The translations under genes and the position numbers were made by a program. A DNA stretch of 64,000 nucleotides from Candidatus Poribacteria bacterium (lineage in GTDB: Bacteria; Poribacteria; WGA-4E; WGA-3G), in NCBI GenBank assembly GCA_965242965.1, contig OZ251518.1:2016001-2080000 (forward strand). Direction: 5' to 3'. The stretch's first letter is position 1. Each line of letters begins with the position of its first letter. Under the pieces are notes generated by a model, which was given only the letters and a program-made list of their open reading frames with translations, was not told the DNA's origin and searched no databases. Below are positions 30,466 through 60,207 of this stretch, in pieces.

Positions 30466-33400
30466 TTACAAACGCAACACACTCAGCGTCGCTTTTTCGC
30501 CGTTGAGGTTTTCGACGCGGGTGAACGCATTTTCGCCCGGCACCTCAACGACTTCGGTGGTGAGCGTCTCACTGAGCACATAGTCCCGATGCGCCGCGAA
30601 CGCTTCGTCCACTAGCGGCGTAGCAGTGAGACTCAACTGAATCCGGTCGGCGACGTTAAAATCAGCCGCCTTCCGCAGGTTCTGGATTTTATTGACGAGT
30701 TCGCGCGCCAAACCTTCCAGCACCAATTCGTGCGTCAACGCCGTCGCCAACGCGACAAACTTCTGTGCATCCGCTTCCACGACGAAGCCTTCCCGATGCT
30801 GCGTTTGCACGTCGATTTCCTCGCGCGTGAGCGTGAACGTTTTTGTTGTTCGCGAGGTGTCGTTCATCTGCGACTGGGCAGCGGCCGTTGTCAAGTCTTG
30901 CATTTCCACTTGTATGCTGCCTGTGGATTCCAATGCTGTCTTCAGTTTTGCAGCATCTGCCGTGGCGAGTGCCTTCGCGATAGCTTGAACATCCTTGCCG
31001 TATTTCGGTCCCAGCACCTTGAAATTCGGTTTGAGCGTCACCTGCGCGAAGGCGTTCATATCCTCCGTAAAAGTGACAGATTTGACGTTGAGTTCGGCGT
31101 GAACTAACGCCACCAAGCGGGTGACGGTTGCCTGCTGTGCCGCGGATAACCCACCGATTGTCAGTTCCGAAAGCGGCTGCCGCGTCTTGATACCCGAACG
31201 ATTTCGCGCCGCATGCCCCATGCTGATAACCTCGCGCACGAACGCCATGTCTTCTTCCAGTTGCGCGTTTTCCAACGTCGCATCCGCGACAGGGTAGGAT
31301 ACCAAATGAACGCTTACCGGTGCATCGGCATTAAGCGAACCGACGAGGTTGCGGTAGAGCTCCTCCGCCAAAAACGGGATAAACGGCGCTGCCAATTTCG
31401 CAACCGTGACTAATACCTCATAGAGCGTGGCGTAGGCGGCGCGCTTATCCGGCCCCAATGCCGCACCCCAAAACCGGTCGCGTGAACGGCGGACATACCA
31501 GTTACTCAGGTCATCGATGAACGCCTCGATTGCGCGGGGCGCATTGGTAAGATGATAATTCTCCATCTCTTCCCGAACTGTGCTAGTGACGGTTTGCAAT
31601 CGCGCCAAGAGCCATCTATCCATGACAGAACGTTCGGCAGGGCTCGGAGCCTCTTCCAATACACCGCTTCCCTCGATATTGGCATACATGACGAAGAAAC
31701 TGTAGACGTTATGGAGGGTGCCCATGAATTTCTTCAGTGCTTCGTCAATTCTGTCAACTTTAAAGGCGCGCTGTGTCCACGGCGGACAGGCGGTGAACAT
31801 ATACCACCGCATCGCGTCCGCGCCCTGTTTGTCCAGAATCGTCCACGGATCTACGGTGTTACCGCGGCTCTTGCTCATCTTTTGCCCATCGGCTGCCATG
31901 ATGAGTTCATGGCAGAGGCAGTTTTTGTAGGCAGGCTTGTCGTAAAGGAGCGTGCCTGTCGCCAAGAGGCTGTAGAACCAGCCGCGCGTCTGATCGATGG
32001 CTTCGGAGATAAAATCAGGCGGATACGCTTGTGCCAGCATCTCCTGATTCTCGAATGGGTAGTGCCATTGCGCCGTGTGCGCGCAGCCTGAATCAAACCA
32101 GCAATCGATGACATCCGGCACGCGATGCATCCTGCCGCCGCACTTATCGCAAGTGAGAACGACATCATCGACATAAGGCCGGTGGAGTTCAATATCGTCC
32201 GGAACGTTCGTGCCTCGCTCTTTCAGTTCGGCGATACTACCGATGCAGTGCTGATTGCCACACGCATCGCATGTCCAGACAGGCAGCGGCGTTCCCCAAT
32301 AACGTTCACGGCTTAATCCCCAATCGACGTTGTTTTCCAGCCAATTGCCGAACCGTCCCTCTTTGATATGTTCCGGGTACCAGTTAATCTGCTGATTGTG
32401 CCGGAGCATCTGTTCGCGGATAGCGGTGGTGCGGATGAACCACGATTCGCGCGCGTAATAGAGCAACGGCGTATCGCACCGCCAACAGAACGGGTATTCG
32501 TGCTTATATTCGCTCGCCTTCAACAACAGCCCGCGCTGTGCGAGGTTTTCGGTGATACCTGCGTCGGCATCTTTCACGAATGTGCCTGCCCACGGTTCTA
32601 CTTCCGGCACAAACGTTCCATCCGGTGCCACCAACTGCACCAGCGGCAAGCCGTGTTTTTGCCCGATTTCGTAATCGTCTTGCCCGAATGCGGGAGCGAT
32701 ATGCACTAACCCTGTCCCGTCTTCAAGCGTAACGAAGTCACCGGCGACGACGTAGTGCGTGCGAGGGCCTGTCCCCCGCGCTGCGGTAGAAGGCGCATCG
32801 CTCGATGTGAAGTCAAACAGCGGTTCATACTCCCAATCGAGGAGTTCGTATCCTTTGTAGTGTGTCGTCATGTCCGGTTGTTCATCGCCAAACACTTTAG
32901 ACAAGAGTTCTTTTGCGAGGATGAGATGCTGTCCTTCATGCGCAACGCCGACGTAATCGTAATCTTCGCCCACGGCGATAGCCAGATTAGAGGGCAGCGT
33001 CCACGGAGTCGTCGTCCAGACGAGCAGGTAGGTGTTCTCCTGATTTTTGACTGGGAATTTCACGTAAACAGAAGGGTCTGCCACAGTCTTGTAACTGAGC
33101 GAAACCTCGTGTGTAGCAAGGGTTGTCCCGCATCGGCAGCAGTAAGGTTGCACCTTGTGTCCCTGATACAGGAGTTCCTTATCCCATGCTTGCCGCAGCA
33201 CCCACCACACGCTCTCAATGTAATCGTTTGACAGCGTGATGTAGGCATCGTCTAGGTTCACCCAGAACCCGATGCGTTCTGTCATCAGCCGCCATTCCTG
33301 TTCGTATTGGAAGACGTTCTCCTTGCATTTTTCGATGAAGTTCTCAACGCCGTAAGCCTCAAGTTCAGCCTTATTTGTGATATTGAGCTGCTTTTCGACC

Positions 33401-33684
33401 TGGTATTCAACCGGCAGGCCGTGCGTGTCCCATCCCGCTTTTCGGTGGACGTAGTGTCCTGTCATCGTCTTATAGCGGCAGACGGTATCTTTCAGGATAC
33501 GCCCAAGAACGTGGTGCACGCCGGGCGGCGCGTTAGCGAACGGCGGTCCTTCGAGGAAGACAAACGGCGGGTCTGCCTGATGCGCAGTCATGCTTTTCTG
33601 GAAGATATCGTTCTCTCGCCAGAACACCAAGGTCGCTTTTTCTTTTTCTGCAAACGTAAATTGTGGGGATACCTCTTCAAACAT
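30466..33684 (-). CDS. ileS: Isoleucine--tRNA ligase (type 2)
   Basis: EGPPFAN, GWDTHGLPVE, WTTTPWTLPSN, DQTRGWFY, KMSKS; start reassigned to ATG 33684. Confidence 0.96.
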   Translation of the reverse strand: MFEEVSPQFTFAEKEKATLVFWRENDIFQKSMTAHQADPPFVFLEGPPFANAPPGVHHVLGRILKDTVCRYKTMTGHYVHRKAGWDTHGLPVEYQVEKQLNITNKAELEAYGVENFIEKCKENVFQYEQEWRLMTERIGFWVNLDDAYITLSNDYIESVWWVLRQAWDKELLYQGHKVQPYCCRCGTTLATHEVSLSYKTVADPSVYVKFPVKNQENTYLLVWTTTPWTLPSNLAIAVGEDYDYVGVAHEGQHLILAKELLSKVFGDEQPDMTTHYKGYELLDWEYEPLFDFTSSDAPSTAARGTGPRTHYVVAGDFVTLEDGTGLVHIAPAFGQDDYEIGQKHGLPLVQLVAPDGTFVPEVEPWAGTFVKDADAGITENLAQRGLLLKASEYKHEYPFCWRCDTPLLYYARESWFIRTTAIREQMLRHNQQINWYPEHIKEGRFGNWLENNVDWGLSRERYWGTPLPVWTCDACGNQHCIGSIAELKERGTNVPDDIELHRPYVDDVVLTCDKCGGRMHRVPDVIDCWFDSGCAHTAQWHYPFENQEMLAQAYPPDFISEAIDQTRGWFYSLLATGTLLYDKPAYKNCLCHELIMAADGQKMSKSRGNTVDPWTILDKQGADAMRWYMFTACPPWTQRAFKVDRIDEALKKFMGTLHNVYSFFVMYANIEGSGVLEEAPSPAERSVMDRWLLARLQTVTSTVREEMENYHLTNAPRAIEAFIDDLSNWYVRRSRDRFWGAALGPDKRAAYATLYEVLVTVAKLAAPFIPFLAEELYRNLVGSLNADAPVSVHLVSYPVADATLENAQLEEDMAFVREVISMGHAARNRSGIKTRQPLSELTIGGLSAAQQATVTRLVALVHAELNVKSVTFTEDMNAFAQVTLKPNFKVLGPKYGKDVQAIAKALATADAAKLKTALESTGSIQVEMQDLTTAAAQSQMNDTSRTTKTFTLTREEIDVQTQHREGFVVEADAQKFVALATALTHELVLEGLARELVNKIQNLRKAADFNVADRIQLSLTATPLVDEAFAAHRDYVLSETLTTEVVEVPGENAFTRVENLNGEKATLSVLRL

Positions 33685-33781
33685 GCGAAATCCCTCTCGT
33701 TTTTTTAGACACGACTTACGCAAGCAGGTAGGCGCGCTTCGTGTAAGTCTGAATAGCAACGAAAAATCGTATTTACTAATT

Positions 33782-33849
33782 ATGATACCATATTTTGCGA
33801 TGGATGTCAAATCTTTTTTTATTCATTTTTCCCCAAAATGTGGTATAAT
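33782..33849. promoter_or_regulatory. Divergent promoters for ileS (-) and the downstream operon (+)
   Basis: Minus: TTGACA-17-TATCAT (33810-33782); plus: TGTGG-TATAAT (33844-33849). Confidence 0.7.
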
Positions 33850-58932: not shown

Positions 58933-60114
58933 TCAGGCAAAAGAAGGACGCGCGCCCAGACAATCACGCCCCAAAACATAAACCCGTATCTGCTCCCACT
59001 TCCGCTTGGACCGGTGCGTTGCAACTCGCCTTTTAAAAACATCGCACACCCGAAACCCTGCCGATGCAATTATCCGCTCCATGTTCTCAATCGCCTTCGG
59101 ACCGGAGGCATCCGCATACCCTAATAAAATCGTGCCTTCCGGTTTCAGGAAATTCGGAGCCTGCGCAAAAAACCTTTCTAACGTCCGCTGCTTCTCATCG
59201 TGGATGGCGAGTTCAGATCGGTTCCGAGCTCGCATGACTACCCACGGTGCATTGAAGAGAATCAGATCGAATGACTGATGCGATGGAAATTCTTCAAATA
59301 GATCGCCGGGAGGCATGACGTGGATGTGCGTGTCTTCAGGATAAATCCGTTGGATATTTAATCTTGTCGTTGCTACCGCTTCGGAGAGGAGATCGGATGC
59401 GTGGAGGGTAACATCGGCACCTAATTCTTGCCGCGCGAGCAGTGTTAAAACACCGCAGCCGCAGCCGATGTCGGCGGCAAAAATCGAGACCGGGAGGTCT
59501 CTCCTACGGGCGAATGCCTGCAACGCTTCTTGAAAGCATTCAACTGTCTCTTGTGAGCGCGGCGGGAGGACGTTTTCGGAGGCGACGAGGGATGCATCGA
59601 GTGCGTTGACTGGATACGTCGTCTCAAGCGCGCTCTGGATGCGTTGGACGGACGCGACAGGGACGAGAAATGGATGCCCTTCGTTCGCGCCGGGAGGTTC
59701 GCCGATAAGCTCCAAGAGATAGGGCAAATCGGGAGATGGATCTGTCTGCAATGTGCCTTCTGCATCTGCCCAGCATAAGAGACGCGCGTAAGCCTCTTCT
59801 AAACGCGCGCGGGAAATAGCTCTTCCCGGCCGCGAGTGGCGATTGCCTTTCGCGCGCGAAGCTGATTTATAGGCGTGCGCCGGTGTCACAGCATTTTTGT
59901 GGCGGCGAATGTAGTCCATCACCACCATAATTTGTTCCCAAGCCCCTTGGACTACAGCGACACCGCCTCGCTCAATATGCGTGGAAATCCGACCGAGGTG
60001 CACTAAGTCCTGATGCGCGAACAATTTCACGCGCCCGCGCGCGAAGACTGCGTCGCGGATGGCAGTGGGGACGTAGAGTGTGCCGATGTTGGTGACGGAA
60101 TAGAAGGTGTTCAT
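58933..60114 (-). CDS. Class I SAM-dependent methyltransferase (PrmC/MTS-like)
   Basis: ADIGCGCG, GDLF, FDLILFNAPW; start reassigned to ATG 60114. Confidence 0.8.
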   Translation of the reverse strand: MNTFYSVTNIGTLYVPTAIRDAVFARGRVKLFAHQDLVHLGRISTHIERGGVAVVQGAWEQIMVVMDYIRRHKNAVTPAHAYKSASRAKGNRHSRPGRAISRARLEEAYARLLCWADAEGTLQTDPSPDLPYLLELIGEPPGANEGHPFLVPVASVQRIQSALETTYPVNALDASLVASENVLPPRSQETVECFQEALQAFARRRDLPVSIFAADIGCGCGVLTLLARQELGADVTLHASDLLSEAVATTRLNIQRIYPEDTHIHVMPPGDLFEEFPSHQSFDLILFNAPWVVMRARNRSELAIHDEKQRTLERFFAQAPNFLKPEGTILLGYADASGPKAIENMERIIASAGFRVCDVFKRRVATHRSKRKWEQIRVYVLGRDCLGARPSFA

Positions 60115-60207
60115 GAGGAAAACGGCGATGGAGAATATGCCGGCGCGCAGCCGAGGCATGGCGAGGGACAGGCCCTCGCCCTACGATTCGGTGGAAACTA
60201 TTTGGGA

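What the first reader, a model, noticed from the sequence alone, without database searches (positions are those of the whole stretch)
32761..32781. REP palindrome inserted in frame inside ileS
Seen: GCGAGGGCCTGTCCCCCGCGC, a hybrid of the two commonest intergenic REP units here, lies inside intact ileS and reads ARGTGPR within YEPLFDFTSSDAPSTAARGTGPRTHYVV. Known: REPs are by definition extragenic; in-frame palindrome insertion into proteins is known mainly from Rickettsia palindromic elements. Inference: REP units in this lineage insert into surface loops of essential genes and create new peptide sequence. About ten candidate cases in 64 kb (see the following findings) would make this a genome-wide system.
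Basis: partly seen in the sequence, partly recalled or inferred. Interest (0 to 1): 0.85.

Follow-up and report, generated by a model that had tools for sequence, protein, structure and literature searches.

The report
REP repeat inserted inside ileS gene
One 30-base copy of a very abundant small palindromic repeat sits in frame in a floppy surface loop of the proofreading domain of this sponge-symbiont's only isoleucyl-tRNA synthetase and is tolerated there; this is real and recurs across the genome, but the kind of event is already described.

Summary
The 21-mer is at 32761-32781, antisense to an intact ileS (30466-33810, minus strand), and reads ARGTGPR.

It belongs to a GTAG-tagged REP family:
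- About 4,100 copies in this Candidatus Poribacteria genome.
- Present in all 3 genomes of the genus and in 0 of 28 other relatives searched.

Similarity to the REP family covers 28-29 nt. The net insert against orthologues is exactly 30 nt, or 10 residues (STAARGTGPR).
- 83 of 86 regex-matched IleRS loci have the short 8-residue segment.
- The sister species also carries a REP-like core in this loop.

An AlphaFold2 model of the CP1 editing domain puts the insert in the only low-confidence, unstructured internal loop. Contigs from three other studies bridge the insert without indels. Contigs in all four runs laid carry a variant that restores a perfect palindrome, so the "hybrid" is probably a point mutant.

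At least 30 other ORFs with Pfam domain matches carry this REP in frame.

This scan had already reported such inserts elsewhere in this genome. Verdict: a new member of a known kind, moderate interest.

The parts
30466..33810 (-). ileS ORF (type-2 isoleucyl-tRNA synthetase). The ORF as listed starts at a TTG. The probable true start is the ATG at 33684 (M43 of P0001), giving about 1072 aa. It is the only IleRS in the genome.
   Evidence: ORF, translation. (E = 0 to PDB 8c8w/1ile; the alignments begin at residues 43-46). (single full-length match in G000).
32761..32790 (-). Net 30-nt in-frame insert relative to orthologues. The coding strand reads TCT ACC GCA GCG CGG GGG ACA GGC CCT CGC, which is S341-T-A-A-R-G-T-G-P-R350 in P0001 numbering.
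   Evidence: Codon-level comparison with empty sites in other genera. Segment length 18 against 8 residues. 11 extra residues against 8c8w.
32761..32789 (-). REP-homologous stretch of 28-29 nt. The best matches to other genomic REP copies are 27 of 28 identical, and exact 23-mers are shared with four other copies.
   Evidence: blastn-short of the coding-strand segment against the genome.
32781..32784 (-). Degenerate REP tag GCAG (GTAG in the family), one base before the stem.
   Evidence: 3999 of 4171 family cores have GTAG at this offset on one side.
32773..32779 (-). 5' stem arm on the coding strand (GCGGGGG).
32768..32772 (-). 5-nt loop (ACAGG on the coding strand, CCTGT on the + strand). 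32768 C>A in some contigs changes Gly to Val.
32761..32767 (-). 3' stem arm on the coding strand (CCCTCGC). It pairs with the 5' arm except for one G.T (G.U in RNA) position, which is an A/C mismatch on the + strand (32764/32776).
   Evidence: (32776 C>T restores full pairing in other strains).

Best explanation
A single unit of a genus-specific, very high-copy, GTAG-tagged REP family (tag, 7-bp stem, 5-nt loop) became part of the DNA that encodes a surface loop of the CP1 editing (proofreading) domain of the sole isoleucyl-tRNA synthetase.

Shown:
- The insert is REP-derived.
- It adds exactly 30 nt (10 codons, STAARGTGPR) without a stop.
- The loop it lengthens is short in essentially all relatives that lack the REP family.
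- A structure model places it in an unstructured, low-confidence loop, while the rest of the domain is confidently folded like solved IleRS editing domains.
- Strains from several samples carry it without indels.

Inferred:
- REPs spread by RAYT (HUH tyrosine transposase) action on single-stranded hairpins and by local tandem duplication.
- They land blindly.
- Purifying selection removes all copies in genes except those that keep the frame, avoid the TAG of the tag, and fall in tolerant loops or linkers.
- The ileS copy is a tolerated passenger that is now decaying by point mutation. The 'hybrid' stem is one substitution away from a perfect A-type unit.
For: REP origin:
- 19 of 19 core bases plus tag region; 27 of 28 identity to other copies.
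- 0 matches in shuffles.
- The family has about 4100 copies, 96% with a GTAG tag.

Insertion:
- 83 of 86 regex-matched IleRS loci have the 8-residue segment (73 distinct DNA segments: 70 short, 3 long).
- Of the 23 loci the regex missed, 16 show 8-9-residue loops by eye. The other 7 are a divergent IleRS type at 37-44% identity.
- The REP family was found in 3 of 3 genomes of the genus and 0 of 28 other relatives.

Loop:
- The AF2 model of the CP1 fragment has mean pLDDT 86.3.
- The only internal segment under 50 is fragment residues 104-114 (SDAPSTAARGT), with no secondary structure across residues 96-119.
- Foldseek top hits are IleRS2 (TMq 0.86) and isolated IleRS editing domains.
- The editing motifs WTTTPWT and GTGLVHIAPAFGQDD are invariant in the alignment.

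Not an assembly artefact:
- Contigs in X10 (2155 nt), X4 (590 nt) and X1 (105 nt) bridge the insert with 0 gaps.
- No indels or joints were listed in any of the 4 runs from 4 studies.

Selection filter:
- Coding-like ORFs cover about 79% of the genome.
- Only 315 of 4348 REP cores lie in such ORFs, and only 49 have coding-like sequence on both sides.

Generality:
- 30 of 32 host ORFs scanned have Pfam domains.
- The aminotransferase and LigA inserts are absent in 4 and 2 of the four other genomes compared (three genera), respectively.

RAYT link: in sister genome G002 an intact 181-aa Y1 transposase is flanked by REPs of this family in both orientations.
Against: - No empty-site allele exists within the species or genus. 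The nearest empty sites are in other genera, and the loop residues beside the insert have also diverged (TSSDAP..T against AQHNQRA). The junctions are therefore inferred from length and REP similarity, not seen.
- No target-site duplication is visible.
- This genome lacks an orthologue of the G002 RAYT that is flanked by this family. Its single intact RAYT is flanked by a different GTAG REP family. The mobilising enzyme here is therefore unknown, although this genome has about 9 times more copies than G002.
- The sister species' REP-like core sits 7-8 codons further from the HY anchor and in a 48-nt insert. One ancestral insertion followed by indels and two independent insertions are both possible.
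- Translation of the insert and its neutrality for aminoacylation or editing were not tested.
- The position relative to tRNA or the editing pocket could not be measured, because the tools return no coordinates.
Confidence: 0.85

Rival explanations
1. The lengthened loop was kept because it is useful to the protein. It might tune editing, tRNA handling or an interaction in the sponge host. On this reading the insert is an exapted REP, not a passenger.
For: The loop is occupied by REP-like sequence in both genus members that have the gene assembled. It shows no indel variation in 4 runs. There is a strong reading-frame bias among intragenic REPs genome-wide: 25 of 35 clusters are in one frame, and for the CCTGT-loop cores the split is 18 in frame 1 against 1 in frame 2 (both frames are stop-free by my reading of the consensus). 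This shows that the encoded peptide matters to selection.
Against: The peptide itself varies between strains (Gly to Val at 32768, Thr to Met at 32759) and between species (ARGTGPR against ARGTVPH). The modelled loop is disordered. The same REP occurs in about 30 functionally unrelated proteins, which argues for tolerance rather than a specific function. Frame bias is explained equally well by avoiding a harmful peptide.
Confidence: 0.07
2. The element acts at the nucleic-acid level inside the gene. It could be an mRNA hairpin affecting decay or translation, or a DNA site for RAYT, gyrase or recombination. It would be retained for that reason.
For: The stem is kept: there is one G.U in the mRNA sense, and a fully paired variant occurs in other strains. 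Extragenic REPs are reported to affect mRNA stability and supercoiling (PMC3733652 abstract).
Against: Folding 61 nt of the mRNA gives no unusual stability (z = -0.31; 71 of 200 shuffles fold as well), and the minimum-free-energy structure is not the REP hairpin. In the sister species the stem has decayed by one pair. No RNA data were available.
Confidence: 0.05
3. The resemblance to REPs is coincidental or convergent (a Gly/Pro/Arg-rich loop in a GC-rich codon context), or it is an assembly artefact.
For: None beyond the short length of the element.
Against: 0 matches in 100 shuffles against 67 in the window. 27 of 28 identity including the tag region. The insert is absent from orthologues outside the genus. 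Independent contigs from other studies carry it.
Confidence: 0.01

Closest known systems
Intragenic GTAG-tagged REPs (Di Nocera, De Gregorio and Rocco 2013, BMC Genomics 14:522, PMC3733652; passages read)
   Same: Short stem-loop repeats with a GTAG tag, mostly extragenic, with a minority lying wholly inside ORFs of known proteins and translated in frame. That paper lists tRNA synthetases (X. oryzae, E. litoralis, S. alaskensis) and DNA ligase (O. terrae) among the hosts, and single units, dimers and clusters encoding up to tens of residues. All of these are seen here.
   Different: A new host phylum (Candidatus Poribacteria), with its own consensus sequence and about 4100 copies. The host site is a loop of the IleRS CP1 editing domain. 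The cognate RAYT was found only in the sister genome. The paper's Additional file 3 (list of hosts and encoded residues) could not be opened, so I cannot say whether an IleRS or a frame bias is reported there.
Rickettsia palindromic elements (RPE; Ogata et al. 2000, as cited in PMC3733652 and PMC3184786; not read itself)
   Same: Palindromic repeats inserted in frame in genes that probably still encode functional proteins.
   Different: RPEs are listed as about 105-146 nt (table in PMC3184786), against 28-30 nt here. According to PMC3733652 the small rickettsial ones are CGTC-tagged and lack a dedicated transposase. The unit here is GTAG-tagged.
REP/REPIN-RAYT systems (Nunvar 2010 PMC2817692 and Bertels & Rainey 2011 PMC3116915: search listing only; Messing 2012 PMC3479197: abstract read)
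   Same: A GTAG-tagged hairpin family. In G002 a Y1 (IS200-like) transposase gene is flanked by REPs of the family. There are large tandem arrays.
   Different: The ileS copy is a singlet inside a gene, not an extragenic doublet. This genome has no RAYT next to this family.
In-frame insertions of other small repeats or MITEs (Delihas 2007/2011, PMC3184786; passages read)
   Same: Repeat-borne open frames fused internally to protein genes.
   Different: Those elements are larger and bounded by terminal inverted repeats.

Membership tests
GTAG-tagged REP (repetitive extragenic palindrome) family | Short (20-40 bp) imperfect palindrome able to form a stem-loop | tested here: met
   7-bp arms and a 5-nt loop. 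The ileS copy has one A/C (G.U on the other strand) mismatch.
GTAG-tagged REP (repetitive extragenic palindrome) family | High copy number, dispersed over the genome | tested here: met
   4171 19-nt cores. 4107 by the stricter pattern, against 0 for the reversed control.
GTAG-tagged REP (repetitive extragenic palindrome) family | Unpaired GTAG tetranucleotide at one end | tested here: met
   3999 of 4171 cores have GTAG one base before the stem on one side. The ileS copy has GCAG, a variant shared exactly by at least four other copies.
GTAG-tagged REP (repetitive extragenic palindrome) family | Predominantly extragenic | tested here: met
   315 of 4348 cores lie inside coding-like ORFs, which cover about 79% of the genome. 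49 have coding-like flanks on both sides. Gene calls are my own crude ORF and codon-usage model.
GTAG-tagged REP (repetitive extragenic palindrome) family | Associated RAYT (Y1 transposase) gene flanked by REPs of the same family | tested here: inconclusive
   Own genome: not met. There is one intact 154-aa RAYT, flanked by a different GTAG family, and no family REP within 1.5 kb of either Y1_Tnp match. Sister genome G002: met. G000 has no orthologue of that gene.
Rickettsia palindromic elements (RPE) | Unit of about 105-146 nt encoding tens of residues, in a rickettsial lineage | tested here: not met
   The unit here is 28-30 nt (10 residues), in Poribacteria. It works like an RPE but is not one.
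Type-2 (eukaryote-like) isoleucyl-tRNA synthetase | Full-length similarity to solved IleRS2, with intact KMSKS and editing motifs | tested here: met
   E = 0 to 8c8w over residues 46-1084, and KMSKS is visible in the alignment. WTTTPWT and GTGLVHIAPAFGQDD are invariant. The fold matches IleRS2 and editing domains.

The most novel reading that the evidence does not exclude
In this Poribacteria genus the REP family is, in effect, translation-compatible mobile DNA. It repeatedly supplies ready-made Gly/Pro/Arg turn peptides to loops and interdomain linkers across the proteome: IleRS, LigA, PBP1, aminotransferase, kinases and about nine restriction-modification paralogues. Two observations suggest that selection acts on the encoded peptide and that certain loops are recurrent acceptors. 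First, the frame bias is extreme: 18 to 1 between the two open frames for CCTGT-loop cores, nearly always read as V-A-R-G-P-V-P-R-D/E. Second, the same loops are occupied in sister species. On this reading REPs would be a systematic engine of loop and linker evolution in a sponge symbiont, not an occasional accident.
Probability: 0.25. Interest if true: 0.55.

Novelty: new member of a known kind. Interest (0 to 1): 0.35.

Why it matters
It is a clean natural experiment in protein tolerance. An essential, single-copy aminoacyl-tRNA synthetase has accepted 10 repeat-encoded residues in its proofreading domain. The same repeat has been accepted in about 30 other proteins of one genome.

This gives a map of insertion-tolerant loops. 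It is also a case study of how selfish hairpin DNA is filtered by frame and position.

For annotation it is a practical warning. In REP-rich genomes such as these long-read sponge-symbiont assemblies, REPs are not safely 'extragenic'. Repeat masking can break real genes, and REP arrays can create false ORFs: 698 cores lie in ORFs of 100 aa or more, but only 49 have coding-like flanks.

It does not open a new class of biology. Intragenic GTAG REPs were catalogued in 2013.

Tried and rejected
- mRNA structure. 61 nt around the insert fold no better than shuffles (z = -0.31), and the minimum-free-energy structure is not the REP hairpin. I dropped the idea of a special RNA structure.
- Expression. 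No RNA holder was listed for the stretch, so nothing can be said about expression.
- RAYT beside the family in this genome. None was found.
- Third genus member, G001. Its 86%-complete assembly lacks the ileS region, and only REP-sized matches were found.
- L036. This is the one other Poribacteria IleRS with an 18-residue segment at the site. Its insert does not look like a REP, and a 24-mer from it occurs once in its genome at up to 3 mismatches. It is not evidently a repeat.
- Target-site duplication or exact junctions at ileS. None are recognisable, because the flanking loop codons have diverged.
- 'About ten cases in 64 kb'. This was not reproduced for this family. A k-mer scan gave a handful of further mid-gene repeat fragments and several at ORF ends, which may lie outside the true starts.
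- Technical misses. A MAFFT run of about 100 full-length proteins hit the time limit. A first anchor regex matched only 5 loci. Both were replaced.
- Completeness. My intragenic scan is not exhaustive.
- Short contigs in X1, X2 and X10 that leave the reference at about 32755-32761 and 32787-32795, the REP borders (table 7). I read them as other REP copies, but alternative alleles were not excluded.
Full report
**Observation.** The 21-mer GCGAGGGCCTGTCCCCCGCGC is at window 32761-32781 on the + strand. The region is antisense to a 1114-codon ORF (30466-33810, minus strand). The translation contains ...YEPLFDFTSSDAPSTAARGTGPRTHYVV....

The protein is a type-2 isoleucyl-tRNA synthetase:
- phmmer gives E = 0 to the Priestia megaterium IleRS2 chain 8c8w over residues 46-1084.
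- It gives 1.5e-274 to Thermus 1ile.
- These alignments start at residues 43-46, so the real start is probably the ATG at 33684.

A search of the window's own genome with this protein finds one full-length match. The other G000 matches listed have E 1.5e-45 or weaker at 23-28% identity. This is therefore the only ileS.

**The repeat family.** With up to 3 mismatches the 21-mer has 67 matches in the window and none in 100 dinucleotide-preserving shuffles. The repeat finder shows many families built on the same unit, which is a tag ..CCGTAG.., a 7-bp G/C-rich stem and a 5-nt loop CCTGT or ACAGG.

Counts in the whole genome (5.70 Mb, 2 contigs):
- The 19-nt core has 4171 hits.
- 2100 are A-type (GCGAGGG...CCCTCGC) and 1935 are G-type (GCGGGGG...CCCCCGC).
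- 16 are the hybrid present in ileS and 56 are the reciprocal hybrid.
- 3999 of the 4171 cores have GTAG one base before the stem on one side.
- 544 of 4348 15-nt cores are singletons. The rest sit within 200 nt of another copy.

This is a classical GTAG-tagged REP family.

**Organism and distribution.** Relatives of the IleRS in named genome records are almost all 'Candidatus Poribacteria bacterium' MAGs. That this is a sponge-symbiont phylum is my recollection, but it agrees with 'sponge metagenome' labels among the runs that hold the sequence.

The pattern GCGRGGGCCTGTCCCYCGC was counted on both strands:

| Genome | Relation | Copies |
|---|---|---|
| G000 | own | 4107 |
| G001 | same genus, 86% complete | 886 |
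| G002 | same genus | 444 |
| 28 other genomes | same family or order | 0 each |

The reversed-pattern control gave 0 everywhere.

**It is an insertion.** I compared IleRS from 109 loci: 29 from relatives and 80 from named genome contigs. Some loci are the same genome twice.
- A regex anchored on the conserved flanks matched 86 loci.
- 83 of these have an 8-residue segment, for example FAQHNQRA or SGQHPEKS.
- The window's protein has 18 residues, the same-genus G002 has 24, and one other MAG (L036) has 18.
- By DNA these are 73 distinct segments: 70 short and 3 long.
- Of the 23 loci the regex missed, 16 show 8-9-residue loops by eye. The other 7 (L023-L029) are a divergent IleRS type at 37-44% identity.

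At codon level the empty site in another genus reads TTC GCG CAA CAC AAT CAA AGA GCG CAC TAC. The window reads TTC ACA TCG AGC GAT GCG CCT [TCT ACC GCA GCG CGG GGG ACA GGC CCT CGC] ACG CAC TAC. The net difference is exactly 30 nt.

blastn-short of this stretch against the genome shows that similarity to other REP copies covers coding-strand CTACCGCAGCGCGGGGGACAGGCCCTCGC. That is 28-29 nt, at window 32761-32789. The best matches are 27 of 28 identical, and exact 23-mers including the variant tag CCGCAG occur at four other places. One REP unit therefore accounts for essentially the whole 30 nt.

HMMER's alignment to 8c8w also leaves 11 query residues unmatched exactly here.

**Where it sits in the protein.** I aligned 30 diverse CP1 fragments and modelled the window's fragment of 212 residues.
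- Mean pLDDT is 86.3 and pTM is 0.84.
- The only internal segment with pLDDT under 50 is fragment residues 104-114 (SDAPSTAARGT).
- There is no secondary structure from residue 96 to 119, and a strand begins at Y120-V-V-A.
- Foldseek's best hits are P. megaterium IleRS2 (TMq 0.86-0.87), other IleRS chains and isolated Thermus IleRS editing domains such as 1wk8, 1ue0 and 1udz.
- The editing-domain motifs WTTTPWT and GTGLVHIAPAFGQDD are invariant in the alignment.

The insert lengthens a loop inside the editing domain, about 17 residues upstream of the GTG-VH motif. I could not measure its distance to the editing pocket or the tRNA, because no coordinates are returned.

**Population check.** Twenty runs from 11 studies hold at least part of a 1-kb stretch around the site, and none is on record as RNA. 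I laid contigs of four runs from four studies.
- A 2155-nt contig (X10; 24 differences, 0 gaps), a 590-nt contig (X4; 16 differences, 0 gaps) and a 105-nt contig (X1; identical) bridge the insert.
- In X2 the listed pieces overlap across it, but none has 31 letters on both sides.
- No insertion, deletion or joint is listed in any run.

Two variants inside the REP are informative:
- 32776 C>T is present in contigs of all four runs. It is synonymous (CGG to CGA) and converts the A/C mismatch into an A-T pair, giving a perfect A-type REP.
- 32768 C>A (X1, X2) changes the loop and turns Gly into Val, giving ARGTVPR.

The 'hybrid' is therefore best read as an A-type unit carrying one stem substitution, not as a recombinant of two units. 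The encoded peptide is free to vary.

**Sister species.** G002's IleRS is 86% identical in protein and 76% in DNA over 551 nt. It has FAETAQSG-ARGTVPH-ALASASERA-Y at the site. Its DNA contains GCGCGAGGGACTGTCCCTCAC followed by GCGCTAGC, which is an A-type REP-like core with a decayed stem and a tag-like 3' end.
- It is read in the same frame as in the window.
- It lies in a 48-nt insert.
- Its core is 7-8 codons further from the conserved H/A-Y anchor.

The core identity between the two species (about 17 of 21) is similar to the gene-wide DNA identity. A single insertion in the genus ancestor followed by small indels is therefore plausible. Two independent hits in the same loop cannot be excluded. 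G001's assembly lacks the region.

**Generality.** I made crude gene calls from ORFs of 100 aa or more, scored with a codon model trained on 550 ORFs of 600 or more codons.
- Coding-like ORFs cover about 79% of the genome, yet only 315 of 4348 REP cores lie within them.
- 698 cores lie at least 50 codons from both ends of some ORF. Most of these ORFs are artefacts of stop-poor REP arrays.
- 49 cores in 34 ORFs have coding-like sequence on both sides.

I scanned 32 of these ORFs against Pfam. ileS itself and a 123-aa window ORF were handled separately; that ORF had no match. 30 of the 32 have families at E of 1e-5 or lower, and 2 (L121, L143) have none. By my reading of the tables, most hits bracket the REP. 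Hosts include:
- NAD-dependent DNA ligase
- a class A penicillin-binding protein
- a class I/II aminotransferase
- two PfkB kinases
- a DAG-kinase-like protein
- SRAP
- a PLP-dependent (PALP) enzyme
- a CCA/poly(A) polymerase-like enzyme
- a UvrD-RNase T fusion
- UPF0182
- a giant fn3/cadherin protein
- eight paralogous Type ISP-like restriction-modification proteins plus one Eco57I/TaqI_C type, with REPs in the linker before the specificity domain

Orthologue checks against five genomes (G002 plus four from three other genera):
- The aminotransferase carries three tandem 29-residue units (...TPVARGPVPREPS...) that are absent from all four other-genera genomes. G002 has a partial version.
- LigA carries a 22-residue insert with a degenerate core. 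G002 shares it, and two of the four other-genera genomes lack it entirely. A third (G004) has an unrelated 18-residue insert at the same site, and the fourth has about 4 extra residues there.

The counts are therefore lower bounds.

**Frame bias.**
- Of the 49 cores, 36 are in one frame (core starting at codon position 2).
- Counting one per cluster gives 25 of 35.
- For cores with the CCTGT loop on the coding strand, one frame is closed by the TAG of the tag, and the two others are open by my reading of the consensus.
- 18 clusters use the frame read as (T/S/P)-V-A-R-G-P-V-P-R-(D/E). One uses the frame read as R-S-A-G-A-C-P-P-R.
- Several of the 18 are in paralogous RM genes and may not be independent.

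The ileS copy belongs to the minority type (ACAGG loop, R-G-T-G-P-R; 7 clusters). Insertion cannot know the frame, so I infer selection on the encoded peptide. This is inference and was not tested.

**Transposase.** Pfam Y1_Tnp (PF01797) finds two places in the genome. One is broken by two TGA codons and one is intact.
- The intact 154-aa gene is flanked on both sides, in inverted orientation, by a different GTAG REP family (TGTAG-TTCGGGAGC...GCTCCCGAA). Neither locus has a REP of the ileS family within 1.5 kb.
- tblastn finds no further copy.
- In G002 a second, intact 181-aa Y1 gene is surrounded by REPs of the ileS family and variants of it, in both orientations.
- G000 has no orthologue of it. 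The best hit is its other RAYT at 26% identity.

The family is RAYT-associated in the genus, but in this genome its cognate enzyme is missing although the family is most abundant here. Action in trans by the remaining RAYT, growth by tandem duplication, or recent loss of the gene are all possible. None was tested.

**Comparison with the literature.** Di Nocera et al. 2013 (PMC3733652; abstract and passages read) sorted REPs into GTAG- and CGTC-tagged superfamilies. They report:
- REPs 'entirely located within ORFs' of known proteins in several species, with the most GTAG cases in Opitutus terrae.
- Many hosts in replication and repair genes, including DNA ligase in O. terrae.
- tRNA synthetases in three species.
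- Inserts of single units, dimers and clusters encoding 20-30 and up to 43-82 residues.

Their host table is a supplement that I could not open. Delihas 2011 (PMC3184786; passages read) reviews repeats fused in frame to protein genes. Messing et al. 2012 (PMC3479197; abstract read) describe the E. coli RAYT bound to a REP.

Searches for Poribacteria together with 'repetitive extragenic', RAYT, REPIN, 'palindromic repeat' or 'miniature inverted' found only two papers naming Poribacteria. Judged from title and abstract, neither is about REPs in Poribacteria. REPs in Poribacteria seem unreported in that library.

Earlier notes of this scan on the same genome describe in-frame REPs in a CoA ligase and in the RM gene at G000 about 422 kb, citing the same 2013 paper. 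I re-found the RM case independently.

**Verdict.** A REP unit is translated as 10 extra residues in a disordered loop of the editing domain of the sole IleRS. The same family decorates at least 30 other ORFs with Pfam domain matches.

The mechanism of arrival (RAYT-type single-strand transposition, with selection as the filter) is inferred, not shown. The phenomenon is a new member of a known kind. The points that go a little beyond the published description are:
- the scale, in a new phylum;
- the frame bias;
- the occupation of the same loops in sister species;
- the population variant showing how 'hybrid' units arise.

Noticed in passing
window ~30830-30900 (minus strand; includes the repeated 18-mer at 30840-30857): There is a second lineage-specific insert in the same ileS. 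It adds about 17 extra residues (...EMQDLTTAAAQSQMNDTSRTTK...) in the C-terminal region and is absent from G002 and 11 other orthologues. It contains an 18-mer that belongs to a different repeat family, with 18 exact copies in the genome.
   Followed up: partly
G000:C1:3462874-3464223 (L136): A class I/II aminotransferase carries three tandem 29-residue units, each with a REP read as VARGPVPR. Each unit also repeats part of the host sequence (period 87 nt). The insert is absent in four genomes from three other genera and partly present in G002. It looks like local tandem duplication after an initial insertion.
   Followed up: partly
G000:C1: 420304-423492, 612022-615450, 773531-776743, 1095918-1099040, 1984637-1987969, 2699772-2702915, 3227360-3230656, 5539924-5542881 and others (L115, L117, L119, L123, L126, L132, L134, L144): A large paralogous set of single-chain restriction-modification proteins (N6_Mtase/Eco57I plus Type_ISP_C or TaqI_C). 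Nearly all have one to three REPs in frame in the linker before the specificity domain.
   Followed up: partly
G000:C1:1205341-1207440 (L124) and L150-L154: NAD-dependent DNA ligase has a 22-residue insert with a degenerate REP core in its adenylation domain, shared with G002. G004 has an unrelated 18-residue insert at the same position.
   Followed up: partly
G000:C1:3147502-3147963 (L112); G002:C1:4791100-4791650 (L156): The only intact RAYT of this genome is flanked by a different GTAG REP family. The RAYT that is flanked by the ileS-type family exists in G002 but has no orthologue here. Yet this genome has about 9 times more copies of that family.
   Followed up: partly
L013, L016, L036, L044, L048, L062 (IleRS CP1 fragments, alignment A1): Other Poribacteria lineages have their own 9-12-residue inserts at other points of the IleRS CP1 domain. 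Examples are RVLSPLCGADTL, IGAHCPYSF and (T/A)(P/S)LDK(G/E)(D/G)(I/M)(E/G/K)G(L/W). Whether these derive from repeats of those genomes was checked only for L036, and it does not.
   Followed up: partly
genome-wide (34 ORFs): Intragenic REPs show a strong reading-frame bias. For CCTGT-loop cores, 18 clusters are in the frame read as VARGPVPR(D/E), against 1 in the other open frame.
   Followed up: partly
window 59479-59510, in ORF 58933-60159 (minus strand): A unit of another abundant palindromic family (GAGACCGGGAGGTCTC with a CTAC-type tag) lies inside a 408-aa ORF, just upstream of its methyltransferase domain (Pfam match at residues 228-376). Whether the N-terminal 216 residues belong to the gene is open.
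   Followed up: partly
window 32755-32761 and 32787-32795 (table 7): Short contigs in X1, X2 and X10 leave the reference at the borders of the REP. They are probably other REP copies, but alternative alleles (for example a doublet) were not excluded.
   Followed up: no
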